Origin: Candidatus Marinacidobacterales bacterium
GTDB taxonomy: Bacteria; Acidobacteriota; Vicinamibacteria; Marinacidobacterales; DATDRI01
Length of the DNA: 64,000 bases
Assembly: GCA_965219415.1 (NCBI GenBank)
Contig: CBDCNP010000002.1
Location: 3,008,001 to 3,072,000 of the forward strand
Direction: 5' to 3'
The notes under the pieces are model-generated. The model had not been told where the DNA came from. It worked only from the letters and a program-made list of their open reading frames with translations, and did no database searches. Position 1 is the stretch's first letter; the number at the start of each line of letters is the position of its first letter. Below, one piece after another: positions 1,737 through 56,245 of this stretch. The translations under genes were made by a program, and so were the position numbers.

Positions 1737-2505
1737 TCAGACTGACGGAAGATCCGACAACGATATCTTCTGGAGATCGCCATCAGGGGCGTGAGCCTTC
1801 TCCGCCGCCCGGCGAATAATCGCCTTGATGGCCTCTTCTAGAAATCGGCGGTTCTGATATGTCAGATCATTGTCCTTGCCGCTCGCCTTTCTCGCTTGCT
1901 GGCCGCCTCTCTCCGAGGAAAGGTGGCCGATCTTGTTGAGCACCTCCAACTCTATCCGATACACTTCAGATGCCAACTCCCTACACCTTTTCTTCTTCGT
2001 TGAACGTTCAAGTATGGTCAGACAGAAATAGGCCGTGCTCGCCAAAGGTTCTCTGCCCTGGAGATAACCCATGTAGCGATCATACATGGTCTGCACATCG
2101 GGGATGAGCTTGAGTCCCGATGATGGTGGCGAAGGATAAGGTTTTAAAACGGTAGCCATCACGCTTACCTTCGGTACCCCACTCGTGATGCTCACGGATG
2201 TATCCATCACACCCGGTGTCGGCTTCCGGGTCCTCAATGTGCGCCCTTTTAAACTTTAACTTGAAATGGTTCGGCCCTTCCCGAAGGCTAGCGTCGAACT
2301 CCCAAACGCGGATGTAGTCTTCAATGGCTTCCCGTGCAGCGTCTTTCGTCTCGTAGTGTTCCTTGAATTCAAAGCACACTTGCTCATTCGCGATCTCGAC
2401 ACGAAAACCTGTCTCTTCGTGATCGATTGGCTTCGCCTCACCATAATCAACCCACCGACCATGCTCGATTTGGTAAAGCAATGCGACTACATGAGGGTCG
2501 TTCAT
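1737..2505 (-). pseudogene. Hypothetical protein split by a frameshift (ORFs 2080-2505 and 1737-2237)
   Basis: Two overlapping same-strand ORFs with a plausible join near 2220-2240, bounded tightly by the F end (1729) and the G motif (2522). Confidence 0.55.
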
Positions 2506-2521
2506 TGAACTACCCCGGGAA

Positions 2522-2570
2522 TGCGTGCCGAGGTCCGTGGAAAAAAACGGCGCTCCTCCACTTCGTCATC
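2522..2570 (+). repeat. Family-G end motif (TGYGT...CGTGGAAAAAGAACGG)
   Basis: Recurs at 23307 and 32503, and degenerately at about 33245. Confidence 0.6.
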
Positions 2571-2647
2571 ACGTGGCTCTCGAGTTCCCTTCGTTCGGTT
2601 ATCATGTCTCTATCTTCGAACCATCAGCGGGATCGCTACGCCACAAA

Positions 2648-9906: not shown

Positions 9907-10151
9907 GGTGCTTCCGCCATCAAGTGTTGCTACGCCGTGTTTGAATGCTAGTGTCAGCTGGCCTGCCTGTGTCGGCGAACGCCACTAATAAGGATGTTGG
10001 CGTGCACACGAAGGCGTCTCTGAACGTCAGGCACCGTGTGGTCAGCCCAGCCCGCATCGCCGAAAGAACTGCGTCTCTCGAAATCGGGCCCCAAACTCTA
10101 GCACACGAGCGGGTTACGCGGCAGCCACCAACACTTGATGGCGGAAACACC
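9907..10151. mobile_element. MITE B1 (245 bp, TIR GGTGCTTCCGCCATCAAGTGTTG)
   Basis: Inverted ends GGTGCTTCCGCCATCAAGTGTTG / CAACACTTGATGGCGGAAACACC. Second copy at 41796-43486 is interrupted by IS110. Confidence 0.85.
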
Positions 10152-29542: not shown

Positions 29543-30004
29543 TTACTCCGGCTCAACAAGGCTACGTGTGATCGCCGACCAATACAGGAATAGGCCGACG
29601 ATACTGAGACTGCCGAAAATGAACACCGCTTCAAGGCGCCCAGACAGACCCCAAAACCAGAATGAGTCCTCGGTGCCTTCCAGGTATCGGACCAGATTAT
29701 CGGCAAACGCCGCGAAGAAGAGCATCGAGCTCCAGTAGAGCGGGCCGTGATGCTGACCGAGTGGGTTGACTTCGTCCCGGGAGGGTCTTTCCCTGGCCTC
29801 AGCAAAGGACAGATAGCCAAAGCCCGTGACTATGTAAGCGATATTGAAGCCGACAAAGATCAAGATGGGTAGTGATACTCGCCACCACGACCAGTCGCTG
29901 AAAACGGCCAGCTTAAGGAGTGCCACGATCAAAGTGAGGGCGCCGAAGACAAAGAACCCGGTGGTCTGAATTTCCTTCTCGCCGGCCGTGGCTCCAGTTT
30001 TCAT
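29543..30004 (-). CDS. Hypothetical 4-TM membrane protein, passenger of IS-D
   Basis: ATG overlaps the transposase stop (ATGA); hydrophobic segments, DWSWWRV motif. Confidence 0.7.
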   Translation of the reverse strand: MKTGATAGEKEIQTTGFFVFGALTLIVALLKLAVFSDWSWWRVSLPILIFVGFNIAYIVTGFGYLSFAEARERPSRDEVNPLGQHHGPLYWSSMLFFAAFADNLVRYLEGTEDSFWFWGLSGRLEAVFIFGSLSIVGLFLYWSAITRSLVEPE

Positions 30005-31068
30005 GCCGCCTCTCGGTGGTAGTATCTCAGCAGCCCACCGAGCCTTTCCCGACAAAGGATTGGCCCTTCGCGGGGGCCGCTGCTTTCTACAGACGGAAAG
30101 AGAATGACGTTTTCCTTGCCTTGATGGTTCCTCTCTCCATGATAATGAGCGAGATAGGAAGCCAGACACCGTCTGAATGCTGGCTCGCCGAACAAGATCA
30201 GCTTCGATAGACATTCTTCCTTCACAGACTTCACCCAGCGCTCCGCGAAGGAGTTCAAATTCGGGCTTCTCGCAGGCAGTTTGACGGTCTTGATACCCAC
30301 CTCTTCGAGTGTCCGCTGAAACGACGCGCAGAATTTCGAGTCGCGATCGTGGATCAAGTAGCGGGTCGAGCAAAGAAAGCCGACATCCGCCATGGTCACA
30401 TTCCGGACCACTTGGGTCATCCACCTTTCGTCTGGATAGGGTGTGATACCGGCAATATGAACGCGTCGCGTAGCCAGGTGTATGAAGAATAAAACGTAGT
30501 AGGTGACCAGCCCGGACTTCGTCCACACCTCCGCGGTGAAGAAATCCGTTGCCGCAAGGACGTCCATGTGCGAGCGGATGAACTCGTTCCACGTCGTTGT
30601 CTTTTCTCGCTCCGGCGCGGGCGGTATACTGTGGCGCTTCAGTATGTTGCCGACGGTTTGGTCGCTCGCTCGATACCCGAGGTTCGCCATGGCCCCGGCA
30701 ATGCGATCATAGCCCCACGATCGGTTCTCTCTCGCGAAGCGGATAATCAGCTGTTCGATCTTTTCGTCGATTCGTGGTCGCCCCGGATACGTCCGGTTCT
30801 TGGAACCGTCGAACTTCCTGGCGATGAGCTTGCGGTGCCACCCGAGAATCGTATCGGGCCTGACGATACTCGCTACCTCTTCGAGCGCGCGCTTGCCGAG
30901 CTGTTTTCCGATCTCCGCCAAGGTTCTCCGCTCACCATCGGTCAGGCGCAAACGGCCTTGCAGCTGATCTCGAAGAATACGATTCTCGGTAACGAGGTAC
31001 TCGTTGCGCAGGAGCAGTTCTCGGTCGACCGATCCCGTGATGTACGCCAGCATTGTCTTCCAGTCCAT
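30001..31068 (-). CDS. rve/DDE transposase, 355 aa
   Basis: ENRSWGYDRI, TDFFTAE...HDRD...SPNLNSFAERWV, RERLGGLLRYYHREAA. Confidence 0.93.
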   Translation of the reverse strand: MDWKTMLAYITGSVDRELLLRNEYLVTENRILRDQLQGRLRLTDGERRTLAEIGKQLGKRALEEVASIVRPDTILGWHRKLIARKFDGSKNRTYPGRPRIDEKIEQLIIRFARENRSWGYDRIAGAMANLGYRASDQTVGNILKRHSIPPAPEREKTTTWNEFIRSHMDVLAATDFFTAEVWTKSGLVTYYVLFFIHLATRRVHIAGITPYPDERWMTQVVRNVTMADVGFLCSTRYLIHDRDSKFCASFQRTLEEVGIKTVKLPARSPNLNSFAERWVKSVKEECLSKLILFGEPAFRRCLASYLAHYHGERNHQGKENVILFPSVESSGPREGPILCRERLGGLLRYYHREAA

Positions 31069-31625: not shown

Positions 31626-32474
31626 TCAAAGGCTGTCGAAGAAATCCTGCCTAGGCTTGACAACTTCAACGGTTTCAGTGCTGATGCCCAATCCGAGCTT
31701 CCTCAGCAGGATGCAAAGATCAATACCGTCGATCAGATCGATAGCCGGTGCTCCGTCCCTCACGGCTTCTCGCTTTGCATCCTGGGTGAACCCTCCTGTG
31801 GTGATGAACAGCCCCTTGTCTGCGCGACCGACCATCGCTCCCCTGAAGTCCCGGATCGCAGACGCACTGACCGAACCCGTGTACCGCTTGCACTGAAAGC
31901 GAACATGAAAGGAGATGAGGTTGACCCGCAACACGCCGGAGCCGTCGATGCCACCGTCGCCAGGGCGGCCCATTACTTCCACCTTCGTAAATCCTGATTC
32001 CCGAAGGACGCGCTGGCAAAGACGTTCAAAGGCGGCAGGCTCCATGCGTCGAACAATGCTCAAAAGGGCTTTTTTCCAATCCTGCTCATCTGTCACATCA
32101 TCTTTGTCAGGTTCGGCGTTCCGCGATCGCCTCGCCTTGTTCTGTTTCGCGCGTCCCAGACGGACTAGATCATGCATTTCCTGCTCCGTCTGAATCCTTC
32201 GGCCAACGTCTGTGATCGTCCAAATGCCACGTGACGTATTGTCGATGGCGCCGGCAAACCGCAGATTAGTTCGCACCCATGCAGCACGATAATCGACTTC
32301 GGATTGTGGGCCATCTTTGTGCGGGACGTCTAAAAGCTTGTCGGGTAGCGCCAGATCGGTAGCCACCTGCTCCGAAAGCTCCTGGATAGAGGCGGAACCA
32401 CCCCGGTCTTTCAATGCTTTGAGGGTTGGCCAATACAAGTCTTTGTCGCTGGGAATTTGGCGCTCGTCAGTCAT
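31626..32474 (-). CDS. mrr: Mrr-family type IV restriction endonuclease
   Basis: Mrr N-terminal wHTH (RGIWTIT) and catalytic FERLC...DGGIDG...QCKRY...FITTG. Confidence 0.93.
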   Translation of the reverse strand: MTDERQIPSDKDLYWPTLKALKDRGGSASIQELSEQVATDLALPDKLLDVPHKDGPQSEVDYRAAWVRTNLRFAGAIDNTSRGIWTITDVGRRIQTEQEMHDLVRLGRAKQNKARRSRNAEPDKDDVTDEQDWKKALLSIVRRMEPAAFERLCQRVLRESGFTKVEVMGRPGDGGIDGSGVLRVNLISFHVRFQCKRYTGSVSASAIRDFRGAMVGRADKGLFITTGGFTQDAKREAVRDGAPAIDLIDGIDLCILLRKLGLGISTETVEVVKPRQDFFDSL

Positions 32475-40366: not shown

Positions 40367-41740
40367 CTATCTGTAAAACCGGCCATCCTTGATCACATGA
40401 AGGACCCCGTGCTTGAGCAGCGTGATGTCCTGCAGGGGGTCGCCATCGACGACGATCAGGTCGGCAAATTTCCCTACCTCGATCGTTCCTAGATCGGCGT
40501 CTACCCCCTGCATCTGTGCCGCTCGTAAGGTCGCGCTCTGTATCGCCTCCATCGGAGACAATCCCACCTCGACCAAGTTCGCGAGTTCTCGAGGCAACGG
40601 AACGTGGAAGTTGACGGGCGTTCCCGAGTCACAGCCAGCGACGATCTGCTCCCGGCCTCCTGCCACGATGAATCGACGGAACTTTTGCTTGACAACCTTC
40701 ATTCGCTCACGCGCACCGATCGCCCATGGAATGGACTGAGGACTACTCCAAGACCGGCGCATATAATCGTAAATGTCTGGAGGAAACTGCTTCCGGAAGC
40801 GAGGGTGATCCAGAATCTCTGGAAAATCCAGGACACGGACGTAGGACTGGCGCATCTCCATCGTAGAGACGAAGTAGGGACCGCGGAGAATGTTCGACGA
40901 GGGACCCAGGGCCACCGGCTTCGCACCCCGTACGAGTAGCCTCATGTCCTCGTCGCTGTACTCGGATAATGGACTGGCTGCGAAGACAACGTGCAGTCTG
41001 TCAACACCGGCCCGAACCGCGGTGCGCATGGCGCTCACGTGCCGCGCCTCGGCGTCCACTCCAATGCCAGCCCGATGGGCGGCATCCACCAGCGCCTCCA
41101 ACACCGGCAGTTTCCAAAATCCCCCGATTTGGATCTGATCGATGTTTGATGCGATGAGCTGTTCCGCGGCCTCGCGCGCCGCTTGTGGAGTCGTCAACCG
41201 ATAGAAGTTCGAAACGCCGTCCGCGGCACGATCGCGTTCGGGGTGATTCTCGATGCTTCGCCCTGTCAGGTAGAGACGAGGACCGAGTCTCTTCCCCGAT
41301 TCGATCGCCTCGCGAAGCTGCTTCTGTTCCTCGAGTGGACCGCTCGCATTCCGGAAGCTTGTGACACCGGCCATCAGATTGAGCTCCGCTACGATGGCCA
41401 TGATCTCCGTCTTCCGATCCGCGAAGTGGGAAACGAACTCGCCAGGGTTCCCGGCTCCTATGTGAAGGAGATGACCGTGCGACTCCCAGAGTCCGGGCAT
41501 GACCGTCATGCCATTGGTGTCGATGACCCGCGCGCCAGAAGGAATGGCTATCGCTCCGACCCGGCCGATTGCGTCGATTCGACTGCCCTTCACCAAGACG
41601 ACGGCGTTGTCGAGAGGTGGACCTCCGTACCCGTCGACGAGCCTCCCCCCGGCTAGGGCAAGGGTTTCCGAGCGGGCATCTGCTGATGTGGTAAGCACAC
41701 AAGCGATAAGAACCGAGGCCGCCGATGTCGAGCGGATCAT
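40367..41740 (-). CDS. Secreted amidohydrolase-family protein
   Basis: Signal peptide, PGLWESHGH, GCDSG, GTIEVGKFADLIVVDGDPL. Confidence 0.9.
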   Translation of the reverse strand: MIRSTSAASVLIACVLTTSADARSETLALAGGRLVDGYGGPPLDNAVVLVKGSRIDAIGRVGAIAIPSGARVIDTNGMTVMPGLWESHGHLLHIGAGNPGEFVSHFADRKTEIMAIVAELNLMAGVTSFRNASGPLEEQKQLREAIESGKRLGPRLYLTGRSIENHPERDRAADGVSNFYRLTTPQAAREAAEQLIASNIDQIQIGGFWKLPVLEALVDAAHRAGIGVDAEARHVSAMRTAVRAGVDRLHVVFAASPLSEYSDEDMRLLVRGAKPVALGPSSNILRGPYFVSTMEMRQSYVRVLDFPEILDHPRFRKQFPPDIYDYMRRSWSSPQSIPWAIGARERMKVVKQKFRRFIVAGGREQIVAGCDSGTPVNFHVPLPRELANLVEVGLSPMEAIQSATLRAAQMQGVDADLGTIEVGKFADLIVVDGDPLQDITLLKHGVLHVIKDGRFYR

Positions 41741-41896
41741 CGGGTCACACTCGCTCCATTATCGTCACCACGCCCTGACCACCACCGATGCAGAGGGTGC
41801 TTCCGCCATCAAGTGATGGAATGGACTCCTCCACTGACATAGACGGCATCGATGTGCCAAAGTCAGTCGAATACGCATCGAAAAGGAGGAGTCCAA

Positions 41897-42928
41897 ATGA
41901 AAGATACGACAATCGCTGTGGATCTTGCAAAGAACGTCTTCGAGATTGCCATCTCGGGAGAAGCGGGGAAGGTGTCCAAGCAACTCCGTGTGAGTCGACC
42001 CAAATTGGTGTCGTTCTTTGCCAAACAGAGCGCTGCCACCGTGCTTCTCGAAGCCTGCGGCTCGGCTCACTTCTGGGCAAGGACGTTCCGAAGGTTGGGA
42101 CACGACGTCGTCCTGCTCCCACCTCACCTCGTGAGGCCGTATCGACGCGGGAGCAAGAACGACCGCGCCGACACGAAGGCGTTGCTCGAGGCCTACAGGA
42201 ACGAGGAGCTTCTTCCCGTACCCATCAAGTCCGTGCACCAGCACACCCTCGCTGCGCTCCATCGCCTGCGCTCAGGATGGCTCTCCACACGGACCGCACG
42301 CATCAATGCCGTACGCGGGCTCCTGCGCGAACTCGGATTCATCATCCCAAAGGGCGCTCACTTCGTCGTGCCCGCCCTCTTCGAACTCGTCGAAGACGCT
42401 GATTCTGATTTGCCCGACGTGCTCCGTTCGCATCTCCGTGATGCCTGCTCCGAGATTCGAGAACTCAAGGACAAGTGCGCTAGCATCGAGCACGAGCTCA
42501 AGGCGCTCACCAAGCAGCTTCCTGAAGTCCAACGACTTCTCGCCATTCCCGGCATCGGACTTCTGGCCGCGACCGCCATCGTGGGCTTCGTCGGCGATCT
42601 TCGCCGCTTCCCATCGGGGCGCCGCTTCTCGAGCTACCTCGGCCTAGTTCCCAAGGAAAACTCCAGTGGCGACATTCGCCGCCTCGGACGCATCACCAAG
42701 CGTGGCGACTCCTACCTCCGTATGCTCCTCACCCAGGGCGGGCGCGCCGTGCTCCGCGCGGCGAACGTCAGCAAGAGCCCGCCCGACAAGCTCCGCGCCT
42801 GGGCTCGGAAGGTCCACCGCTCGCGGGGACACAACAAGGCCGTGATTGCTGTCGCCAACAAACTCGCCCGGATCGTCTGGGCCGTCTCCACCCGCGAGAG
42901 TGAATTCCAGTCGCCGGTGGCCGCTTAG
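41897..42928 (+). CDS. IS110 DEDD recombinase/transposase
   Basis: AVDLAKNVF, LEAC, KNDRAD, LVPKENSSG, AVANKLAR; strong RBS. Confidence 0.95.
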   Translation: MKDTTIAVDLAKNVFEIAISGEAGKVSKQLRVSRPKLVSFFAKQSAATVLLEACGSAHFWARTFRRLGHDVVLLPPHLVRPYRRGSKNDRADTKALLEAYRNEELLPVPIKSVHQHTLAALHRLRSGWLSTRTARINAVRGLLRELGFIIPKGAHFVVPALFELVEDADSDLPDVLRSHLRDACSEIRELKDKCASIEHELKALTKQLPEVQRLLAIPGIGLLAATAIVGFVGDLRRFPSGRRFSSYLGLVPKENSSGDIRRLGRITKRGDSYLRMLLTQGGRAVLRAANVSKSPPDKLRAWARKVHRSRGHNKAVIAVANKLARIVWAVSTRESEFQSPVAA

Positions 42929-42984
42929 ATTTAGAGGCTCCACTTTCGTGTTTTCCTTTTTCCCTTCCAAAAGAGGCTGCGACG

Positions 42985-43160
42985 ATACCCATCCAACTGA
43001 TGGCGTACCGGTCGGACCGGCGCGGGGTCAAGCCAATAGCAACACTGGCCCTAAGAGGTCGTTCAAAGTGATTGGCTCCTCGCGCGCGGATTTTCCATCA
43101 TGGCCCGGAGCACCCAAGACGCTCCTCACTGAGGCCGAAGATACGTTTGCAGTCTGACCC
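42985..43160 (+). ncRNA. Putative bridge/seek RNA of the IS1111 element
   Basis: Two internal-loop hairpins whose loop strands match the target (AGCAACA / AAGTG) and the donor junction (TTCCATCA / AGATA). Boundaries approximate. Confidence 0.75.
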
Positions 43161-43486
43161 ACTCGTCACGACGCGATGGATGCGCAGCTTCGATGGAAGA
43201 TTTATTAAGAAAGGGGCGTGACTAGAAAGAAAGGGGCTTGACTAGAGGAGTCCAGATATGTTGCTACGCCGTGTTTGAATGCTAGTGTCAGCTGGCCTGC
43301 CTGTGTCGGCGAACGCCATTAACAATGATGTCGGCGTGCACACCAAGGTGTCTCTGAACGTCAGGCACCGTGTGGTCAGCCCAGCCCGCATCGTCGAAAG
43401 AACTGCGTCTCTCGAAATCGGGCCCCCAAACTCTAGCACACGAGCAGGTTACGCGGCAGCCACCAACACTTGATGGCGGAAGCACC

Positions 43487-43681
43487 CAATGACTCCGGTG
43501 TGGTCGAGAGCGAGAAACCAGGGACCGGAAGGCCCTGTCGCTGAGAGGTGGATGGTCCCCTTCGCAGTGGTGGAGTCGTAGCGCACCCACCCAGCCTCTT
43601 CTCCCAAGGGGCGGCGATAGCCGTTCTGCCAGGCGGCTTTCCGGCATTCCTCAGCAACAACGAAGCCTTGAGGTATTTCGA

Positions 43682-43685
<4 letters not shown>
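43487..43685 (-). pseudogene. N-terminal fragment of the fourth operon gene (possibly an HNH endonuclease), clipped by MITE B1
   Basis: GTG overlaps the MTase stop. FVVAEECRKAAWQNGYRR resembles N-termini of HNH proteins from memory; no catalytic motif is visible. Confidence 0.45.
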
Positions 43686-47683
<3,998 letters not shown>

Positions 47684-47686
47684 GGC

Positions 47687-50452
47687 TCACGCCTCGCTCG
47701 GCAACAGAACGAAGAGGCCGATGACGTCAGGGGGCTGGACGCCTTCCACGCTCACGCGCGATGCCGACCCTGCAGCCGCCCGCAGTCTGGCATGGTCTTC
47801 CGCAAGCTTATCAGCACGCACGCGTACGAACTCGCCGATGGGACCGGCCACGAGGTCGGGCAGATCTTCCTGCGCGCGTTGGATGAACCGATCCCTTGCC
47901 GTTGGAGCCAGATCGGCAGCGGCGGGTGTGTCGAGGAGCGTCTTTGCGGCATCGCCCGATGCGACAATGGTGCCGTCGTGCAAGGCGACCAGCGCGGCTT
48001 CTTCCGCGAGCAGCAGGCGTTCCTTTCGGGCATGGATTGTGAGCTTGAAGCGAAGCCTCAGAAGCGCGATCCACGTCACGCGTTCAACGGCTGGGGTCGG
48101 CCATGCACCCACACGACCGATTCCAAGGTTGGCGAGCGTTTCGGGGTCGAGCGATGCCTCGACAAGCGCCTCCGCAAGGGTTGCGGTGAGGGGGTGGGTC
48201 CGTGTGAGAAGCGCTGTCCCTGAGGGGGCTGGCTCGGACGGGGCAAGCCGCACAGACCGGGACATACCTTGTTGCGCCAGGCGCTCGCGCAGTCCGGCTT
48301 CGAGCGCATGAACGTGGGCCACGAGGACCGACCTCCGTGGCTCCAGGGGGACGCCAAAACGCGACATGGTGCGTTCGATGAAGGTGCGAGCTGCCTCCGG
48401 CGAACCGAGGAAGCTTGCAGCCTTTTTCCATTCGGGAGCCACTTCTTGCGGCTTCATAGCGTTCTGGGCGAAGCGAGTCCGGGAGCGTTTCTCCTTCTCC
48501 GAGACGTCGCGCCAACGGGTTTCGACGAGGCGAGCACCGTCCTTGAGACGCAGATCGAGTGTCATCTGCTCCCTACCGCCCTGGCGAAGCATCATCGAAG
48601 CCATGAGGGCATCGGTGACGGGACCCCGTTCGTCCGGGAGGGGCACGGTCACGCCAGTCACCTTACGGATCTCCTCGGCCTTGCGCAGGATGACGTCCAG
48701 GACGGCACCGTCGATCGCGCTCGCCGGCGAGAACATCATGATCGAATGGACGAGTTCGGCGGGCTGGCCGAAACGGTCGACGCGACCCTCCCGCTGCTGA
48801 TGGCGGGTCGGATTCCACGAAAGATCGTAATGAACCACCGTGTCGAAGAGCTGCTGGAGATTGATCCCCTCCGACAAGCAGTCGGTAGCGACCAGAATAC
48901 GCTGGACCTCTTTCTCGTCTTCCGCAGGCGCCATATCGGCGACCCGGTCCCGTCGCTCGTCCGGTGTGAGCACTCCGGTGATGGCCTCGACGCGCAACTT
49001 CGGGAAGGATTTCCGCAGGCCGTTGCGAACGTGCTCTGCCGTGGCAAGATACCGGCAGAAGACGACCGGGTTCGCGCCCTTCTTCAGGAGGGGAGTGAGG
49101 ACACCGACCAGCGCCTCGAGCTTCGGATCGGGCTCCTTCGTCAGGCGTTCAGCGTGCCGGACAAGGCTCAGGAGGGCAGGATCCGCATCGAACGCCACGC
49201 TCGGCTCGATGTCGACGGCGTCCTCGTCATCCCCATCCTCGTCGTAGATCTGAGACTCTAGACGCTCGGCTTCATGCGTCATGCGGTTACGCAGTGCGCT
49301 CAGAGCTGCGGTAGGTGACGAGCCGACGCAACGCATCAATGCCAGCGTTCCCCAGAACGCCAGTCGGCGCTCGCGCTGGCTGGTTCCTGCACGGGAGACC
49401 ACGCCCAGGCAATAGTCGAGGACGGCTTCCTGGAAATCGAGATAGGCTTTTGACAGTGGATAGGGCGTCTCCGTAGTTTCGTGCTTCGGGAAGGCACGCT
49501 CCTCACCCCACTCGCCAGATACCAAATCGATTCTTCGCCGCTGCACGAAGTGACGGGCCAGGCGCTCCCGGTAACGGGCGTCGTCGAAGCTCATGGAGGC
49601 AAATTCCAGGTCGACCAGGGACAGAAGGCGTGAGAACGCCTCCTCATCACCCGAATGCGGCGTGGCTGTCAGCAGGATCATGCGCCGTTGCGGATCGCGG
49701 GCGAGACCTTGGAGAAGTGCAAACCGCTGCTGCTTACCTTTATGAGTGCCCACGCAGGCATGGGCCTCATCCACGATCACGAAGTCGGGACAAGCCCGGG
49801 CGAATCCCTCTCGCCGCTTCTCAGCCTTGATGTAGTCCAGGCTGACCACCGTGTAGGGATAGGCATCGAAAAGCGTCTGCGCAACGGGCAGGCCACGCTC
49901 CAGGCGCGCGGCCGAGCCCGATGTGACCGCTACGGGGTCAATACCGAAGCGGGATTTCAGTTCGAGCACCCATTGTTCGACGAGGTGAGGCGGGCATAGG
50001 ACCGAGAAGGCATCGACCTCGCCGCGATCCAAGAATTCCCGAAGGATGAGACCAGCTTCAATCGTCTTGCCGATGCCCACGTCATCCGCTATCAAGAGGC
50101 GAGGCACTTGGAGGCGAAGCGCCATCAGCAGCGGCACAAGCTGATAGGTCCGTGGCTCGAAAGCGAGCTGCGCTGCTGAGCGGAAAGGACCGGCCCCGCG
50201 CCGGAGAGTGAGGCGAAGCGCATCGGCAAGAAGAGCCGCCTTCGACTGGACCGTTGGAACGGCGTTTTCGGGCAGGTAGAAGCGGGCAGGTCCGACGGGC
50301 TCGCTCTCGAGCCGGGGGTCGAGAAGAACGGTGTCCTTCTCGTTGCCGGAAAGGGGGCGAAGCGCGAGTAGGTGGTCTCGGGGTGCTGGTAAGGCAACCC
50401 ATTCCCGACCCCGGGCACGGACAAGGTCGCCTGGAGCAAAGGAAAGAGGCAT
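47687..50452 (-). CDS. SNF2-family helicase (DrmD-like)
   Basis: LIADDVGIGKT, DEAH, LTATPH, SEGINLQ, QREGRVDR. Confidence 0.92.
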   Translation of the reverse strand: MPLSFAPGDLVRARGREWVALPAPRDHLLALRPLSGNEKDTVLLDPRLESEPVGPARFYLPENAVPTVQSKAALLADALRLTLRRGAGPFRSAAQLAFEPRTYQLVPLLMALRLQVPRLLIADDVGIGKTIEAGLILREFLDRGEVDAFSVLCPPHLVEQWVLELKSRFGIDPVAVTSGSAARLERGLPVAQTLFDAYPYTVVSLDYIKAEKRREGFARACPDFVIVDEAHACVGTHKGKQQRFALLQGLARDPQRRMILLTATPHSGDEEAFSRLLSLVDLEFASMSFDDARYRERLARHFVQRRRIDLVSGEWGEERAFPKHETTETPYPLSKAYLDFQEAVLDYCLGVVSRAGTSQRERRLAFWGTLALMRCVGSSPTAALSALRNRMTHEAERLESQIYDEDGDDEDAVDIEPSVAFDADPALLSLVRHAERLTKEPDPKLEALVGVLTPLLKKGANPVVFCRYLATAEHVRNGLRKSFPKLRVEAITGVLTPDERRDRVADMAPAEDEKEVQRILVATDCLSEGINLQQLFDTVVHYDLSWNPTRHQQREGRVDRFGQPAELVHSIMMFSPASAIDGAVLDVILRKAEEIRKVTGVTVPLPDERGPVTDALMASMMLRQGGREQMTLDLRLKDGARLVETRWRDVSEKEKRSRTRFAQNAMKPQEVAPEWKKAASFLGSPEAARTFIERTMSRFGVPLEPRRSVLVAHVHALEAGLRERLAQQGMSRSVRLAPSEPAPSGTALLTRTHPLTATLAEALVEASLDPETLANLGIGRVGAWPTPAVERVTWIALLRLRFKLTIHARKERLLLAEEAALVALHDGTIVASGDAAKTLLDTPAAADLAPTARDRFIQRAQEDLPDLVAGPIGEFVRVRADKLAEDHARLRAAAGSASRVSVEGVQPPDVIGLFVLLPSEA

Positions 50453-50457
50453 TTCGG

Positions 50458-53400
50458 TCAGTCTCTCAATGCCGCAATCAATTCGGCCGGCAGGCCTTCG
50501 GATGAGTCGGCCGGCAGTTCGAAGAGGCTCCATCCCCGGTCGTCCGCTGCGGCCTTCACCGCCTCCGGAATAACGCCCGCTCTCGCGGCAACGTAATGGC
50601 TATGCCAGGTGAAAGGGAACGAAACATCGGCAAGGGTTAGATGCCTTGCGTCCGGCGCGGGGATGCCATGTTGGTCGAAGACCTCCGACCAGCCGCCCTC
50701 AGTCACAGTGCCTTCCGGCGCAGTCGCGAGCACGACCTTTCCTCGCGCGAGATCAATCAGCAGCTGCTGTACCGCGACGCTGGCACGGTCGATCAACTCG
50801 TGATCGGGCTGGTTGAAATAGGACAGAAGACAACGATAACAGCCCCGCACGCAGGCTTCTTCGCGTTCCTTGAGAAGGTTCGGGTCGTCTGCGGCGATGG
50901 CGGCATCGACCTCGTCGAAATGCATAAGTTCGAGGGCTTGCCTCGCAACCTGGTTCAGTGCATCCGGATCTTCAATCAGGCGGCTCAGCACGCCCGCACC
51001 GCCCTCGCTTGCCTCATAGGCAAAGACAGCGCGCCGGTTATCCCGGCTGGGTAATGGCTCTCCAAGAATTTCGCCTTCCTCAAGCTGGAAGACCACCGCG
51101 ATACCCCGCATCAGGGCATGCTGGAGTGTGGCGATGGTGCTCTGGTCATGGCTATCTTCGAACCGAAACAAGAGGGCATTTTTCCGATCCCGAACAATCG
51201 GAACGATCCGCACCAGCCTGACCACATCGGGCCGAACCTCAACGTCCTCTGGATCCTCATCCTCAGTCTTGGCCCAGTATCCCGTGCGGGGATCGATCAC
51301 GAATCCGAGCACAGTCTTGTTGCGGCGCCGCTTCAAGCCTTTGTTGATCCGACTTATTTCTGCGCTGTTGGCGTATTGCAATTTCATCAGAGGCGTATCC
51401 CCGACTTGAAATTCAGCCTCAGTGACCTCGACACGCCCGTGCTTTCTCGGCCATGCGAAAACGGTCTGAATCTCGAAGCCCTGGCGAATCCGTTCCTCGT
51501 CATTGGCGGTGATACGCTCGGTCGGAGCCGCTTCGACATTGTCGATCCTGAGCGTGCGTTTGACCGGCATCGCTCCAGCCATCGGGAACTGGCAGGCGTG
51601 ACAGCGCTCGACTTCGCCATTGTGAGCTCCACCACAGTTCGGACAGATCACGATGTCCTGCGTCGCAAGCTGCTGACCATCAGCGGTCCGGACTTCGGGA
51701 GGCAGTTTCGCCTTGACGACCCGAAATGCGCGGCCTTCATGATAGATGAGACTGCGAGGGCCGAACTCGGAGATAGCAAGAAAGCGGGAGCGCTGCAGGT
51801 AGGAACCCGACTTGCCCTCGCCCGGAATGAAGGCGTAAAGCGGCAGCCTGGGAAAATTGTAGCCGGGAAGAAACCCTTCGGTCGCAAGGTAACGGTAAGA
51901 ATAGAAGTCCGAGCCGTGGGTTGACTTGCCTCGTTCAAGAAGGGTGATCTGATCCGTGGCCTGCACCTGTGCAGCCTTGATCTTGCGCCGCTCAGCCCCG
52001 GATAATCCTGTCATCTCAGACCGCTTGTTGGCCTCAGACAGTTGCGTGCGCGCGGAGTGATAGAGTTCACGCCATCGGTCGAAGGCGCTGTTGAATTCGG
52101 CCGGTGCCTGGGTAGCAACCTCCTTTACATAATCATCCGGGTCATCTATCCAGAGAGGCTTCCTCTCACCGACTGATGTGAGGATTTGCTCAAGGACACG
52201 GCGCAGCCGGGCGCAGGCCTTGTCCACCAGGGCGGGATCCCGGATGACCCCCAAAATCTCGTCCCTGAGGGGATAGCCTGGTTTCTGGAGGTCGAGGATT
52301 TCGGGAATGTCCGGCGACAGAGCCAGCCCCGCTGTGGCAAGCCAGACCGCCTGTAGATGAGAAGTGATTAGGTTCTTGTTGGTGATGTCGAGTGCTGGCG
52401 GGCGAACCGCACCGGCCACCATGTCGATGCGCCGCTCGAAAAAATACTGATCATGCGGCGACTGGGCCGCACAGTAAGTGAAGATCAAGGCCGCCTGTCC
52501 TGACCGGCCCGCACGGCCCGCACGCTGCACATAATTGGCGGGCGTAGGCGGCACATTGCGCAGATAGACCGTATTCAACGCCGAGATATCGACCCCCAGT
52601 TCCATGGTCGGCGTACAGAACAACGCGGGGAGAAGCTGTTTCGACTCCCCGCTGGCCTTGATTTCGGCTTCGCACTCCGCGATCCGTGCTCGGTCGTCGG
52701 CTTCAAAGCGGAAACGCCATTCCCGCCATTCCCGTTGCTTATAGTTCACCTGGGCCGTATGCTCCCGGCTCTCCATGCCGAACAACGAGCTGGTGTTTGC
52801 CGCGAGATCGTTGGCAACTCGGGTATAGAGGCCGTGGAAGTATGGATTGCCGACAGCCGCTGCGCTCCGAGTAGCTTTACCTGCAATCAGTCGAATGGCT
52901 GAGGGTGATAGACGCCACCCTTGAAGTTCGCCTTCACTGGCCGTCAAAGTCACAAGCCCTTCTGCGGCCAGGATGCCAAGGAGATTGGTAAGGAAGGTGA
53001 TGTAGTCGTCCCCACCAAGCTTGGTACCGATGATGCTCTCATGGTTAATGAGGCGCGCTATGCGCGAACGCGGACCCGCGCGAAGGATCATCCGTTCTTC
53101 ACGCAGACTGGTAAGTTTCTTGCCAGGGGCTTTCAGGAAGAGGGTGGTGCGCTCCCGCGTTGTTTCCTTGTCATCGATGCTCCAGGGAGCCCGCAGGACC
53201 GACCGCGATCTCTGGGCAACGGTGTCCAGAACGGCAAGATCGAGCGCCTCGGTATCAACGGCCAAGCCTTCGAGCATGGCGGTTAGCAAAATCCTGATGA
53301 CCTTCTTGCGAGCGTCATGATCCAGAGAGTCGAGTTCAGGCAGAATAGCCGCGAGTCTCTCCACGTCTGCGGCCACGTCGTCGAGCCCAACGAAGTCCAC

Positions 53401-54959
53401 CTCGATCAACTTCAATGTCGACAGGTTCGGATTGGTGAAACGCCAACCCCGACGCAAATCAATCCAAACCCGGTGCGCGAGCACCTTGGCTAACGCCCGC
53501 TCTGCGTCGCTGCGAACCACGGCCCCTGCCTCCGGGCTCAACATCCAGTGCACCCGCAGCGCCGTGTTCGCACCCGTAAAACCCAAGGCCCGCTGAACAC
53601 GGAAGCCAAACTCGTCATCCCGCAGACCATCCTCACCGGCATCGAGAACAGCTCGCAGGATGGCTCCACGCAGAAGACTCACGAACAGAAAATCGTTGAA
53701 ATGCCCCACTTGAAGCGCAGCGTCCTGGCGGTTGTCGGTGAAACCAAGCAGTTTCCGCTTATCCTCGGGAACCGCATTGTTGGATTGGTTCAACCACTCG
53801 AGAGCGCTCGAGACGAGAAGCGTAGTCGCCGAGCTTCGCCCTTCGGCGGTAAGACCCGCAAGCTTGCTGCGCTCGCGCATGCGGCCTTGCGGTTCGTCGA
53901 GACAACGGGCACAAAAGCCGAATTTGCCGGGGATGAACCAGAAGGGCTCACCGTCGTCGTCGAGATGACCGCTACCCGCGACTCTCACCTTCCTCGGTAC
54001 GCGGTTTTTCCGGTACGGCCGCAGTTTGAGTAGCTCCTTGCGCTCTTCCGTCCAGCCTTCCGGAAAGTTCTCGAGCGTGCCGTCGAACCGGTAGTCCGGA
54101 TCCCCGAGACCGGCCGGCGTCAGATACCCGGCAACTTCCGTATCGTCGTCTCTCTCGATTGGAATGTCTTCGATATTGCGCGGCAAGAAGAGCACACCAT
54201 CTTCCTGCTCCGTTCTCGTCACCACGTAGTACTCCTGACCGCACTGGCGGCAGAAGCGAATGGGATAGAGCCGGGTTCCAGGAGCATCGGGATCCTCGAG
54301 CTGTCCCTCGAGCAAAACGGTTCGCTGCTTCAAACGCAATGTTGCGAAGATGTCACCTGCTCCCGCGATGAAACGATGCAGCTTGAAGGCCATAAACGCG
54401 TGTTCGCCACTACCACCCCGATCCTTATCAGGGAGGCTGATGCGAGTCAGGAAGTTCTCCAGCACCTCACTGCAGCGCTTGGGGTCGATTCCGCTATCCT
54501 GGGCAAGCAACTTGGTAGCTTCGACAAAAGTTATTGGCCGTCGCCGCTTGAGAATCTGGCCATCCTCCAGACCGAGCACCAGTTCCACCCAGACCGCCAG
54601 CGGATGAGTGACTAATTCTGCATCGGTCAGCCGTTCGGGAAGGTCTCTCTCGAGTACATTCGCGAGCTTCGGAACAACGTCTGCGCGCGCGAGACGATCA
54701 TCCGTGGCCCGGCGCAGCGACTCGTCGATCACTCCGTCTGGGCCGATCGAGGTTCCAAACAGACGTGAAACCACCTTCGAGACTTCCAAGGCACGGCTGG
54801 CACCACTGCCTTCGCTGGACATCGTCGCAGAAGTCCCTATACAAAGTGGAGCCTTGTTAGGCGTACAGCGATCGCGTAGCCGACGAACAAGAATGGCAAC
54901 GTCAGCGCCCTGGCGGCCGCGGTAGGTATGCAACTCGTCCAGGACGATGAACTCAAGCC
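50458..54959 (-). pseudogene. Large DEAD/DEAH helicase with C-terminal DUF1998-like Zn domain, 5'-clipped by IS-C (Walker A missing)
   Basis: Begins at LEFIVLDELHTYRG; TSAT, TMELGVD, QRAGRAGR, CVRGCYRCLLSY. Confidence 0.88.
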
Positions 54960-56245
54960 TGTGCATCGTCAAAACTGCTCCGCCCACGAAATCAAGGACT
55001 TACGCTCCGCTTGAATTCCGGGCCGAAGACGGCGAAACTCCGCCGCTATGCTCAACGTTGTTGTCTTCCTCGTCTCACTTGGCGTCCGTGCCATTCGGGC
55101 GATGTGTCGGCGCCGCGCCGACCTGGTGTTGGAGAACGTCGCTTTGCGGCAGCAAGTGACGGCGCTGAAGAAAGAGCGCCCACGCCCACCGCTCGACGAC
55201 ACGGAACGGGCTTTCTGGGTTGCCCTTCGAGGTTCGTGGCCCGTGTGGGCGAGCCGCCTGCTCATCGTCCACGCGGACACCGTAGCCCGTTGGCATCGCG
55301 ACCGATTCCGACGGTACTGGGCAAAGATCTCGCAGCGCCGCCATCCCGGTCGGCCTCGGATTGATGCCGAGATTCGTCGCCTCGTCCGCACGATGGCGCA
55401 AGACGGCTGGGGGGCGCCACGCATCCATGCTGAGCTCACCAAGCTCGGTTTCATCATCTCCGAGAGCACGGTGTCGCGATACCTGCCGCGGCGTCCCGCG
55501 GAGCCCGACCAGCTGAAACGATGGATGGCTTTCTTGCGCAACCATAAAGACGATATCGCCGCCATGGATCTGTTCACCGTGCCCACCGCGTCGCTCCGGC
55601 TGCTGTACGGCTTCTTCGTCATCGAGCACGGTCGCCGGCACATCGTTCACTTCAACGCCACGTTCCACCCGACGTCTGCTTGGGTTATTCAGCAACTACG
55701 CGAGGCGTTTCCCTACGACACCGCTCCGAGATATCTCCTCTTCGATCGCGACTTCATCTTTAACGCAGCGGTCATCGAGTTCATCAAGGCAACGGGCACA
55801 AAACCCGTTCGCACTTCGTTTCGCAGCCCATGGCAAAACGGAACCGCGGAGCGGTGGGTCGGCAGCTGCCGTCGCGAGCTCCTTGAGCACGTCGTGGTTC
55901 TCGGTGCATGTCATCTCATCCGGCTCGTGCGAGCTTACATCAGCTACTATCATGAGGACCGTTGCCACTTGGGGCTGAACAAGGACACACCGAGCTTGAG
56001 AACGGTCACGCACCGACCGTCTCCTACGGCGAAAGTAGTCGCACTGCCGCGAGTCGGTGGACTGCACCATCGATACGAGTGGCGAGAGGCAGCCTGAGTC
56101 AGCTTGGTCGCTCGCGTTACTCGGCTGGTCGCCGAGAAGTTCGTCCTCAGCACCTTCCCTCGCGCCCTGACCACGCTCTCCAGCATGTGCTCGAGGGCGG
56201 TCCGGGCCCTAGAGTCCAGTCCCGGATTAATAATGATGATGGACA
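54960..56245 (+). mobile_element. IS-C complete copy
   Basis: Both TIRs; intact ORF. Confidence 0.92.
55048..56097 (+). CDS. rve/DDE transposase, 349 aa
   Basis: Nearly identical to 11447-12496. Confidence 0.92.
   Translation: MLNVVVFLVSLGVRAIRAMCRRRADLVLENVALRQQVTALKKERPRPPLDDTERAFWVALRGSWPVWASRLLIVHADTVARWHRDRFRRYWAKISQRRHPGRPRIDAEIRRLVRTMAQDGWGAPRIHAELTKLGFIISESTVSRYLPRRPAEPDQLKRWMAFLRNHKDDIAAMDLFTVPTASLRLLYGFFVIEHGRRHIVHFNATFHPTSAWVIQQLREAFPYDTAPRYLLFDRDFIFNAAVIEFIKATGTKPVRTSFRSPWQNGTAERWVGSCRRELLEHVVVLGACHLIRLVRAYISYYHEDRCHLGLNKDTPSLRTVTHRPSPTAKVVALPRVGGLHHRYEWREAA

What the first reader, a model, noticed from the sequence alone, without database searches (positions are those of the whole stretch)
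41796..43486. IS1111 whose bridge/seek RNA is visibly programmed against the family-B terminal repeat
Seen: the IS splits B1 at CATCAAG-TG-TTGCTAC (intact site at 9922-9931). Downstream of the recombinase, stem AGCCAAT (43031)/ATTGGCT (43071) encloses loop strands AGCAACACT (reverse complement of target AGTGTTGCT) and GTTCAAAGTG (ending in target AAGTG), with an inner GGCC/GGTC hairpin. A second loop carries TTCCATCA (43093-43100; rc of junction TGATGGAA) and AGATA (43139; junction AGATA-TG). TTGACT at 43238 would form a junction promoter on circularisation. Established: IS110/IS1111 use such bispecific RNAs, and some IS1111 members target transposon TIRs or attC sites. Inference: this is an RNA-guided parasite of the array's own joining sites, implying B ends are abundant and persistent. 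It is also a new recombinase/guide pair candidate.
Basis: partly seen in the sequence, partly recalled or inferred. Interest (0 to 1): 0.8.

Follow-up and report, generated by a model that had tools for sequence, protein, structure and literature searches.

The report
RNA-guided IS1111 targeting another transposon's end
This is an insertion sequence of the known IS1111 type whose own guide RNA matches the end of a second, very abundant transposon family, so it lands almost only there; this is a clear natural example of a mechanism that is already known.

Summary
Window 41814-43258 is a 1,445-bp IS1111-group insertion sequence. It has a 343-aa DEDD/IS110-family recombinase, 10-bp subterminal inverted repeats and a 330-nt non-coding region downstream of the gene.

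That region folds into a two-loop bridge/seekRNA that is conserved in 25 aligned relatives (89.7% of cells paired; 14 of 28 pairs show compensatory changes). The 5' strand of the first loop is complementary to 10 nt of the uninterrupted target. Its 3' strand repeats 5 nt of the left flank plus TG (7 nt if one base is bulged). Across 26 distinct relatives, the guide strands match their own flanks better than any of 20,000 permutations.

In the host genome, 33 of 33 left junctions and 28 of 29 right junctions lie at one position of a 20-bp terminal repeat. Essentially only the TTGCT-type ends are used: 28 of 119 are occupied, against 1 of 359 other ends (p = 2e-17).

The repeat is not an array joint. 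It is the terminal inverted repeat of a 1.2-kb IS1-like element and its MITEs (481 ends in the genome).

This is a new member of a known kind, comparable to IS4321/IS5075 in Tn21 ends and IS1111 in QMITE2. Transcription, circle formation and the junction promoter remain untested.

The parts
41796..41813 (+). Outer 18 bp of the B-end terminal inverted repeat. This is the left half of the target, ending in CATCAAG.
   Evidence: the same 18-20 bp precede the IS at 33 of 33 left junctions in the genome
41814..43258 (+). The IS1111-group insertion sequence, 1,445 bp. The single TG is counted with the left end. It could equally be written 41816-43260.
   Evidence: 26 full-length BLAST matches at 99.3-100% identity, plus 4 near-full copies and fragments; searches give the borders by comparison with empty sites
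41814..41831 (+). Left end: a 7-8-nt terminal extension (TGATGGA/A) followed by the 10-bp subterminal inverted repeat TGGACTCCTC (41822-41831).
   Evidence: conserved as TGATGnnATGGACTCC in the relatives
41897..42928 (+). Recombinase (transposase) gene, 343 aa. It has DEDD/RuvC-like and Transposase_20 domains and the GLVPKENSSG motif.
   Evidence: PF01548 45.9 bits, PF02371 85.5 bits; NCBIfam IS110 family RNA-guided transposase, 302.9 bits, cutoff 140; 46% identity to the ISPa25 transposase; C-terminal domain aligns to ISCro4/IS621
43017..43089 (+). Target-binding module of the bridge/seekRNA. It comprises a basal stem (about 43020-26 with 43079-85), an outer stem (43031-37 with 43071-77), a 5' guide (43037/8-43046), an inner hairpin (43046-50 with 43057-61) and a 3' guide (43062-43070).
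   Evidence: fold; conserved, with compensatory changes; guides track cognate flanks; 10-nt complement, 10 of 5000 shuffles
43086..43150 (+). Donor-binding module. It comprises an outer stem (43086-89 with 43147-50), a 5' guide (43091-43101), inner stems (43101-05 with 43133-37, and 43107-11 with 43121-25) and a 3' guide (43138-43145).
   Evidence: The 3' guide changes together with the IS right end (AGATA, ATACA, ATATA); 0 of 20000 permutations match as well.
43238..43243 (+). TTGACT, a candidate -35 box of a promoter that would be completed only when the two ends are joined in a circle.
   Evidence: TTG at this fixed distance in 24 of 26 relatives, TTGAC in 14 of 26; no complete sigma-70-like promoter in the linear element. 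Function not tested.
43245..43258 (+). Right end: subterminal inverted repeat GAGGAGTCCA (43245-54) followed by a 3-4-nt extension (G)ATA.
43259..43486 (+). The rest of the interrupted 246-bp MITE. It starts with TG TTGCTAC (the right half of the target) and ends with the opposite B-end repeat (43467-43486, minus strand).
   Evidence: an uninterrupted copy of the same MITE lies at window 9907-10151

Best explanation
Window 41814-43258 is an active, or very recently active, IS1111-group insertion sequence of an uncultivated Acidobacteriota genome; its closest relatives are named Candidatus Marinacidobacterales.

How it most likely works:
1. Its DEDD recombinase acts together with a two-loop bridge/seekRNA of about 135-150 nt, encoded in the 330-nt region downstream of the gene.
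2. In the first (target) loop, the 5' strand pairs with the top strand of AG|TGTTGCTA. The 3' strand pairs with the bottom strand of (TC)AAG|TG.
3. The second (donor) loop carries the complement of the element's left end and a copy of its right end.
4. The programmed target is one particular end of another transposon family. That family consists of a 1.2-kb IS1-like element and its MITE derivatives. The end used is the one that carries the TAG stop codon of the IS1-like transposase gene.
5. The IS therefore splits that inverted repeat after base 18, always in one orientation.

Shown here: family membership, the conserved RNA fold, agreement between guides and flanks across relatives, and site and sub-type specificity in the genome.

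Inferred from the published mechanism of the family: that the RNA is made and bound by the recombinase, that a circular intermediate forms, and that a junction promoter operates.
For: Family:
- Pfam PF01548 and PF02371 both match.
- NCBIfam 'IS110 family RNA-guided transposase' scores 302.9 bits against a cutoff of 140.
- The best named relative is the ISPa25 transposase, at 46% identity over 99% of the protein.
- The sequence shows 10-bp subterminal inverted repeats, a 7/3-nt terminal extension reading, and a 330-nt non-coding region downstream against 83 nt upstream. These are the IS1111 features listed in PMC11187229, sections 4 and 6.

RNA:
- In a MAFFT alignment of 25 distinct relatives, 28 hand-drawn pairs are 89.7% paired. 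With the partners slid by 1-3 columns this falls to 30-43%.
- 14 pairs carry changes on both sides, and 0 of 500 shuffles reach the observed measures.
- RNAalifold recovers the same helices independently.

Guides (26 distinct IS):
- The reverse complement of the target-loop 5' strand shares on average 6.65 nt with its own right flank, against 3.64 nt with other elements' flanks.
- The 3' strand shares 4.69 nt with its own left flank, against 3.09 nt with others.
- The donor-loop 3' strand against the element's right end gives 6.00 against 5.14 nt.
- Each of these three is matched by 0 of 20000 permutations.
- Four wrong-strand or wrong-side controls are flat.
- In the window, the 10-nt complement is reached by 10 of 5000 shuffles.
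- The order of the strands (top-strand complement 5' of the bottom-strand match) and their overlap in the target are as published for IS1111 seekRNAs.

Specificity in the genome:
- 33 of 33 left junctions and 28 of 29 right junctions are in the same site and orientation.
- TTGCT-type ends are occupied 28 of 119 times; other B ends 1 of 359 times. Fisher p = 2e-17.

Independence of the insertions:
- IS copies are at least 99.93% identical to one another.
- The 200 nt of host repeat next to them average 85% identity, in two host classes: 11 in the 244-bp MITE and 14 in the 1.2-kb element.
Against: - There is no direct evidence that the RNA is transcribed or processed. Pieces of the element occur in contigs of three libraries labelled RNA, but the tool states that these do not show transcription.
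- No contig showed a circle junction.
- Rfam has no model that matches.
- No complete sigma-70-like promoter was found in the linear element.
- The 3' strand of the target loop matches only 5 contiguous nt.
- The 3' strand of the donor loop has one mismatch to the DNA, at 43144.
- The donor-loop 5' strand does not covary significantly with the left end (2672 of 20000 permutations as good), because both are nearly constant.
- The relatives share descent, so the permutation and shuffle figures overstate independence.
- I dropped one of 26 loci (L066) from the structural alignment because its RNA region was mis-anchored.
- 41 of 79 fetched loci lacked one of my three sequence anchors and were not analysed.
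Confidence: 0.93

Rival explanations
1. The copies did not arrive by targeted insertion. One ancestral insertion into a B element was then spread passively, either by the IS1-like transposase moving the composite element or by segmental duplication.
For: One pair of copies (the window copy and C3:4171992) shares at least 614 nt of identical left flank, so it is a segmental duplication. The composites of about 1,690 bp recur 9 times on C3.
Against: The IS copies are at least 99.93% identical, whereas the adjacent host-repeat sequence averages 85% identity (minimum 60-65%). The insertions fall into at least two unrelated host element classes, plus one off-type end. The insertion separates the outer 18 bp of the repeat from the rest, which should cripple that end. 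Apart from the one pair, all outside flanks differ.
Confidence: 0.04
2. Site choice is made by the protein reading DNA, and the complementarity of the non-coding region to the target is coincidental or a relic.
For: No experiment on this element exists. The 3' strand match is short (5 nt). The single-sequence fold of 43015-43160 is not significantly stable (z = -0.83).
Against: Guide strands change together with the flanks in 26 distinct relatives while the stems stay conserved. Wrong-strand controls show nothing. The discrimination between TTGCT and TTGGT/TTGGC ends lies exactly in the bases covered by the 5' guide. The published family mechanism is RNA-guided (PMC11187229, sections read; PMC11208160, passages).
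Confidence: 0.02
3. The B repeat is a recombination or joining site of a cassette array (integron-like), rather than a transposon end.
For: No target-site duplications flank the B elements, which is unusual for a DDE transposon. Several sub-families with different interiors share the same 23-bp terminus. B ends are clustered in part of contig C3.
Against: There are 26 units of about 1,200 bp bounded by inverted B ends. The one examined (L001) carries a 355-aa ORF with a zinc finger, an HTH and IS1-like DDE similarity: NCBIfam IS1 E = 5e-24, and 27-31% identity to annotated IS1 family transposases. Short 166-250-bp inverted-repeat units behave like MITEs. The ends are dispersed over three contigs in unrelated contexts.
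Confidence: 0.04

Closest known systems
[quoted passage not shown] I saw only its title, in reference lists. The detail that they disable the transposon end is recalled.
   Same: An IS1111-type element with subterminal inverted repeats that inserts at one position and in one orientation inside the terminal inverted repeat of another transposon family.
   Different: The target here is the end of an IS1-like insertion sequence and its MITEs in an Acidobacteriota genome. The recombinase shows only about 41% identity to the enterobacterial plasmid relatives (I did not confirm which named IS those are). Only one of the two ends of the host element is used, because the guide reads bases that differ between the ends.
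IS1111 of Coxiella burnetii inserting in QMITE2 (PMC5896051; abstract and passages read)
   Same: The founding family member also sits almost only inside copies of a MITE (20 of 21 copies). The MITE copies are older than the IS insertions.
   Different: The target there is a GTAG REP-like palindrome inside the MITE, not its terminal inverted repeat. The host phylum and the sequences are different.
ISEc11, ISKpn4, ISPst6, ISPa11, ISPa25 seekRNAs (PMC11187229; sections 4, 6, 9, 10, 13 read)
   Same: The non-coding region lies downstream of the gene. The RNA carries the complement of the top strand 5' of the bottom-strand match, and the two matches overlap in the target. The stems are conserved and the guides are variable between relatives ('natural reprogramming'). 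ISPa25 is the closest named relative of this recombinase (46%).
   Different: Those targets are a linear site, attC sites or REPs. The published short seekRNA (82-96 nt) corresponds to the first module only. Here a second, donor-type module directly follows and is equally conserved.
IS621 bridge RNA (PMC11208160, passages read; PMC11208158 and PDB 8WT6, listing only)
   Same: The RNA has two internal loops, one for the target and one for the donor, each reading both DNA strands. The recombinase is a DEDD type with a C-terminal SG motif.
   Different: In IS621 the RNA lies upstream of the gene and the order of the strands is reversed. Only the C-terminal domain of this protein aligns to IS621/ISCro4 at sequence level (E about 1e-8). 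No solved chain matched this protein over its full length.

Membership tests
IS1111 group of the IS110 family | DEDD (RuvC-like) N-terminal domain plus the PF02371 C-terminal domain | tested here: met
   PF01548 45.9 bits (cutoff 29); PF02371 85.5 bits (cutoff 21.3). NCBIfam NF033542 302.9 bits against a cutoff of 140.
IS1111 group of the IS110 family | GL-P----S(T)G motif in the C-terminal domain; protein of 330-350 aa (PMC11187229 section 6) | tested here: met
   GLVPKENSSG is present in the translation. G249, P252, S257 and G258 are invariant in 18 homologues. The protein is 343 aa.
IS1111 group of the IS110 family | Subterminal inverted repeats: usually 11-13 bp (PMC11187229 section 4), 7-17 bp (PMC11208160) | tested here: met
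   TGGACTCCTC at 41822-41831 is the inverted counterpart of GAGGAGTCCA at 43245-43254, 10 bp perfect. The repeat is conserved in the relatives.
IS1111 group of the IS110 family | Asymmetric terminal extensions, 7 bp on the left and 3 bp on the right, with no target duplication | tested here: met
   If the outermost, imperfect repeat position is counted and the TG is given to the left end, the extensions are TGATGGA (7) and ATA (3). The empty site has a single TG.
IS1111 group of the IS110 family | The long non-coding region lies downstream of the recombinase gene | tested here: met
   330 nt downstream (42929-43258) against 83 nt upstream (41814-41896).
IS1111 group of the IS110 family | Insertion specific for site and orientation | tested here: met
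   33 of 33 left junctions and 28 of 29 right junctions are in the same site and orientation. Occupancy is 28 of 119 against 1 of 359.
IS1111 group of the IS110 family | Full-length similarity to recognised IS1111-group transposases | tested here: met
   46% identity over 99% of the protein to a gene annotated 'IS110-like element ISPa25 family transposase'. ISPa25 is treated as an IS1111-family attC-targeting IS in PMC11187229 section 9. No phylogeny with ISfinder references was made.
Bridge RNA / seekRNA | [quoted passage not shown] | tested here: met
   0 of 20000 permutations for both target-loop strands; structure conserved, 14 of 28 pairs compensatory.
Bridge RNA / seekRNA | A donor loop that matches the element's own ends | tested here: met
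   The reverse complement of the 5' strand equals 8 nt of the left end. It also matches the last base of the right end, as that base would sit in a circle. The 3' strand equals AGATA of the right end. The 3' strand covaries with the right end (0 of 20000). The 5' strand does not reach significance (2672 of 20000) because both are near-constant.
Bridge RNA / seekRNA | The RNA is transcribed, processed and bound by the recombinase, and is required for transposition | not testable with these tools
   Only assembled contigs of RNA-labelled libraries were available. They cover parts of the element but do not show transcription.
Bridge RNA / seekRNA | Match to a curated RNA family model | tested here: not met
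   Rfam 15 search of 41500-43800 at E up to 1 gave only a chance miRNA hit inside the coding region. No bridge or seek RNA family matched; whether Rfam holds such a model I did not establish.
IS1 family (the host element that is targeted) | Transposase with an N-terminal zinc finger, an HTH and an IS1-type DDE domain | tested here: inconclusive
   NCBIfam IS1 transposase 85.3 bits, below the cutoff of 100. IS1/IS1595 zinc-binding domain 20 bits, below 28. Pfam DDE_Tnp_IS1 22 bits, below 24.1. 27-31% identity over 87-94% of the protein to genes annotated as IS1 family transposase.
IS1 family (the host element that is targeted) | Terminal inverted repeats and target-site duplications (8-9 bp; recalled from ISfinder, not checked here) | tested here: not met
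   Inverted repeats of at least 20-23 bp are present. No flanking duplication was found around 26 copies of the 1.2-kb unit, 12 of the 244-bp unit, 4 of the 166-bp unit and 9 composites.

The most novel reading that the evidence does not exclude
The element may act as a sub-type-selective hyperparasite of another transposon. Its guide reads the one end of the IS1-like element that contains that element's stop codon (TTG-CTA-C), a sequence the host element cannot easily change. By splitting the inverted repeat, it has disabled about a quarter (28 of 119) of those ends in a recent burst. On this reading, RNA-guided IS1111 elements can act as natural suppressors of other transposon families.

A second, mechanistic point concerns the IS1111-type pairing scheme. 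In more than 20 relatives, both 3' guide strands end in CG. That matches the uninterrupted target and the integrated right junction, but not the circle junction, which has TG. This hints at pairing with the exchanged strand that has not been described for IS1111 elements and could be tested on this set of 26 natural guide-target pairs.
Probability: 0.3. Interest if true: 0.55.

Novelty: new member of a known kind. Interest (0 to 1): 0.4.

Why it matters
The finding adds a well-documented natural case of bridge/seekRNA-guided insertion from an uncultivated marine Acidobacteriota lineage.
- The genome itself acts as a specificity experiment: 478 near-identical candidate sites differ in a few guide-covered bases, and occupancy is 24% against 0.3%.
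- There are 26 related elements with different guides and known flanks, which are useful for learning the pairing rules of the IS1111 branch. No solved chain matched this protein over its full length.
- It shows one transposon family being colonised, and probably disabled, by another. That bears on how repeat-rich genomes keep transposons in check.
- It does not reveal a new mechanism.

Tried and rejected
Steps that led nowhere or were set aside:
- Rfam scan of 41500-43800: no relevant family matched.
- Single-sequence fold of 43015-43160: z = -0.83, not informative alone.
- Promoter scan of 41700-43400: 0 sigma-70-like sites, so no internal promoter for the RNA could be proposed. The three terminator-like sites are all on the minus strand and within chance (1.6 expected).
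- Own-genome search for paralogues with other guides: only two distant fragments (27-31% identity). The comparative work therefore used other genomes.
- Search for an orthologous empty site in 20 related genomes with the left flank: the best foreign matches were 66-69% identical over part of the flank (short stretches of up to 85%), so no before/after pair was obtained.
- Sequencing runs, all Logan contigs:
  - One RNA-labelled marine-sediment run and one run only guessed to be RNA hold pieces of the recombinase gene at 90-99% likeness.
  - They also hold a contig that keeps the RNA's outer parts (43007-43027 and 43131-43157) but has 99 other letters between.
  - One sponge RNA-labelled run holds 42832-42983 without a difference, and an empty target.
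  - None of this shows transcription, RNA ends or level.
  - No joint matching a circle junction was listed, and contigs would not be expected to show a rare circle.
- Target-site duplications around B elements: none found.
- Structure or complex prediction: not run, because the protein family was not in doubt.
- Supplementary files of the papers were not opened. The supplementary figures of PMC11187229 (long seekRNA folds) and Supplementary Table 5 of PMC11208160 may already list related elements or folds.
- Rows left out:
  - 41 of 79 loci lacked one of my three anchor motifs.
  - One further locus (L032) had too little left flank.
  - 37 loci collapsed to 26 distinct guide sets.
  - L066 was dropped from the structural alignment but kept in the permutation test.
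Full report
**What is at the coordinates**

Reading 41500-43800 and listing ORFs shows a 1,445-bp element. It begins just after ...GCCATCAAG with TG ATGGAA TGGACTCCTC. It ends with GAGGAGTCCA GATA, followed by TG TTGCTAC. Its parts are:
- one ORF of 343 aa (41897-42928, + strand);
- only 83 nt upstream of the ORF;
- 330 nt of non-coding sequence downstream.

The 18 bp before the element and the sequence after it together form a 246-bp unit. That unit is bounded by inverted copies of GGTGCTTCCGCCATCAAGTG (41796-41815 on the + strand, 43467-43486 on the - strand). An uninterrupted copy of the same unit lies at 9907-10151. The caveats are set out in the observation check.

**The protein and the family**

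- The ORF matches Pfam DEDD_Tnp_IS110 and Transposase_20.
- It matches NCBIfam 'IS110 family RNA-guided transposase' at 302.9 bits, against a cutoff of 140.
- Its best named relative in the plasmid collection is the ISPa25 transposase, at 46% identity over 99% of the protein. ISPa25 is treated as an IS1111-family member in PMC11187229 section 9.
- Against solved structures, only the C-terminal domain aligns, to the ISCro4 and IS621 transposases at E about 1e-8. The alignment includes the SG motif region.
- The features that Siddiquee et al. give for the IS1111 family are all met. These are subterminal inverted repeats, 7- and 3-nt terminal extensions, a long downstream non-coding region, a 330-350-aa protein and the GL-P----S(T)G motif.

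**Copies and target in the host genome**

The window is G000:C3:3008001-3072000, in an 8.05-Mb, three-contig assembly.
- BLAST finds 26 end-to-end copies at 99.3-100% identity, four more near-full copies, and a few fragments.
- All 33 left junctions follow the same repeat. Of 29 right junctions, 28 continue TG TTGCTA and one continues TG TTGGCGG.
- The repeat 20-mer occurs 481 times in the genome with up to 3 mismatches: 451 on C3, 26 on C2 and 4 on C1.
- The bases after the repeat fall into classes. Ends that continue TTGCT are occupied 28 of 119 times. All other ends (TTGGTGA, TTGGCGG, TTGGTGG and others) are occupied 1 of 359 times. Fisher p = 2e-17.
- 75 empty sites carry the full CATCAAGTGTTGCTAC.
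- The discriminating bases are exactly those covered by the 5' guide strand.
- Differences between copies are few and none lies in a guide strand. One, at 43059 (T to C, three copies), turns a G-U pair of the inner hairpin into G-C.

**What the target is**

Pairs of inverted B ends bound three kinds of unit:
- 26 units of about 1,200 bp;
- about a dozen units of 241-251 bp (the commonest MITE class);
- further units of 130-375 bp.

One 1.2-kb unit was examined (L001). It carries a 355-aa ORF with weak but consistent similarity to IS1-family transposases:
- NCBIfam IS1 E = 5e-24, though below the curated cutoff;
- zinc-finger and HTH hits;
- 27-31% identity over about 90% of the protein to genes annotated as IS1 family transposase.

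The TTGCTAC end is the end next to this ORF's stop codon. In L001 the repeat starts at 101, the insertion point is after 118, and the ORF on the opposite strand ends at 124. The CTA of TTGCTAC is therefore the complement of the TAG stop.

So the B ends are terminal inverted repeats of an IS1-like element and its MITEs. They are not joints of an array.

One oddity remains: none of these units shows a target-site duplication.

**The RNA**

For comparison I collected homologues, aligned 17 of them with the window protein, and fetched 80 related loci from named genomes. The five closest, at 94-98% identity, are Candidatus Marinacidobacterales MAGs. The rest are mostly Acidobacteriota, followed by Proteobacteria at 39-62% identity.

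The downstream regions align over about 150 nt with almost no gaps. Stems are conserved, and four short segments vary. RNAalifold recovers the basal stem, both loop stems and both inner hairpins.

On the unfitted MAFFT alignment of 25 distinct sequences:
- my 28-pair structure is 89.7% paired, against 30-43% when the partners are slid by 1-3 columns;
- 14 pairs have changes on both sides;
- 0 of 500 shuffles reach the observed values.

**Guides and flanks**

For 38 loci I could locate the RNA, the left end and the right end by conserved anchors. One of them lacked enough left flank, and the remaining 37 collapse to 26 distinct guide sets. The longest exact matches were as follows.

| Comparison | Own (mean nt) | Non-cognate (mean nt) | Permutations as good |
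|---|---|---|---|
| Reverse complement of target-loop 5' strand vs right flank | 6.65 | 3.64 | 0 of 20000 |
| Target-loop 3' strand vs left flank | 4.69 | 3.09 | 0 of 20000 |
| Donor-loop 3' strand vs IS right end | 6.00 | 5.14 | 0 of 20000 |
| Donor-loop 5' strand vs left end | 5.35 | 5.11 | 2672 of 20000 |

- The donor-loop 3' strand follows the right end of the IS through its variants: AGATA, ATACA, ATATA.
- The donor-loop 5' strand and the left end are both nearly constant, so that test has no power.
- Four controls with the wrong strand or the wrong side show no excess.
- For the window element, the 5' guide gives a 10-nt perfect complement of AG|TGTTGCTA in the uninterrupted target. Only 10 of 5000 shuffles of the non-coding region reach this.
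- The 3' guide gives AAG|TG, or TCAAG|TG with one bulged A.
- The order of the two strands, and their overlap on the target, are as described for IS1111-family seekRNAs.
- The presence of a second, donor-type loop in the right end is as predicted for IS1111 elements by Durrant et al..

**Were the insertions independent?**

IS copies differ by at most one base in 1,445. The 200 nt of host repeat beside them average 85% identity within each of two host classes. So a young IS has entered old, diverged repeats many times.

One pair of copies (the window copy and C3:4171992) is a segmental duplication.

Three off-target events fit the same rule of partial matches:
- one insertion in a TTGGCGG-type B end;
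- one copy in a related genome, inserted into another copy's recombinase gene at GTG|ATTGCT;
- one copy whose right end is joined to ...GGCTGCGAC in the non-coding region, which gives a second RNA gene in tandem.

**Promoter**

TTGACT at 43238-43243 lies 15 nt from the right tip. In a circle, the left tip would add TG, one base, then TGGAAT. That makes an 18-nt spacer with an extended -10-like TG but a weak -10.
- A TTG at this distance is present in 24 of 26 relatives, and TTGAC in 14 of 26.
- The linear element has no complete sigma-70-like promoter.
- Junction promoters are documented for the family (PMC11187229 introduction; PMC12288879 passages).
- For this element the promoter is an inference.

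**Expression**

Only assembled contigs were available. Parts of the element occur in RNA-labelled libraries from marine sediment and sponge samples, but that does not show transcription. No circle junction was seen.

One metagenome contig and one RNA-library contig keep the RNA scaffold but carry other letters in the guide region. This suggests sister elements with other guides in the same habitats.

**Comparison with what is known, and verdict**

The element works like the published IS1111-family seekRNA/bridge RNA systems and meets every family criterion that could be tested. Inserting into another mobile element's repeat has precedents:
- IS4321/IS5075 in Tn21-family inverted repeats (title seen in reference lists);
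- IS1111 itself in the QMITE2 MITE;
- attC- and REP-targeting members.

I found no report of an IS1111-type element aimed at IS1-family ends in my three full-text searches. Those searches were narrow and did not cover ISfinder.

The element is a new member of a known kind. Its value is as a clean natural specificity data set and as a case of one transposon colonising another.

Noticed in passing
G000 contig C3, e.g. L001 (C3:4610306-4611705); window 9907-10151: The B-end elements show no target-site duplications at all. This covers 26 copies of the 1.2-kb IS1-like unit and MITEs of about 244 and 166 bp. It is unusual for a DDE transposon family with 481 ends in one genome.
   Followed up: partly
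G000 contigs C1, C2, C3: B ends are very unevenly spread: 451 on C3 (almost all beyond 1.75 Mb), 26 on the 284-kb C2, and only 4 on the 2.07-Mb C1. All IS copies but one are on C3. The assembly is rated 8.45% contaminated, so C1 may be another replicon or another strain.
   Followed up: no
G000:C3:3315126-3316854 (minus strand): In one IS copy the right tip is joined to position about 1161 of the IS. The last 286 bp, which include the whole guide RNA and the right end, are therefore present twice in tandem.
   Followed up: partly
L003 (related Marinacidobacterales chromosome), locus positions about 2501-3927: An IS copy is inserted inside another copy's recombinase gene at GTG|ATTGCT. This self-directed off-target site resembles the real target.
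   Followed up: partly
window 43144; loci L015-L068: In more than 20 relatives both 3' guide strands end in CG. The right junction reads ...ATA+CG and the left junction reads flank+TG. In the window element the target and three of the four guide strands have TG, but the donor 3' strand keeps CG.
   Followed up: partly
window 43206-43245: There is a 20-bp tandem duplication (…GGGGCGTGACTAGA / …GGGGCTTGACTAGA) just inside the right end. It doubles the -35-like box. Two copies in this genome and the relative L003 lack it.
   Followed up: partly
window 43682-54987 (minus strand): Directly right of the interrupted MITE lie very large ORFs of 1,333, 948 and 1,509 aa. The first has N6-adenine methyltransferase-like motifs in its translation, judged by eye and not searched. 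Together with the many B ends, an rve-type integrase ORF (30001-31068) and an Mrr-like ORF (31626-32474), the window looks like a mobile-element and defence island.
   Followed up: no
window 41200-41813 and G000:C3:4171377-4171990: The left flank of the window's IS copy, including the end of the 457-aa amidohydrolase-like ORF (40367-41740), is duplicated at 100% identity elsewhere on C3. The two copies diverge at the far end of the MITE.
   Followed up: partly
run X1 contig loose end at window 43034; run X18 record 22: Contigs share the RNA scaffold but carry a different guide segment. Sister elements aimed at other sites therefore seem to coexist in the same or similar samples.
   Followed up: no
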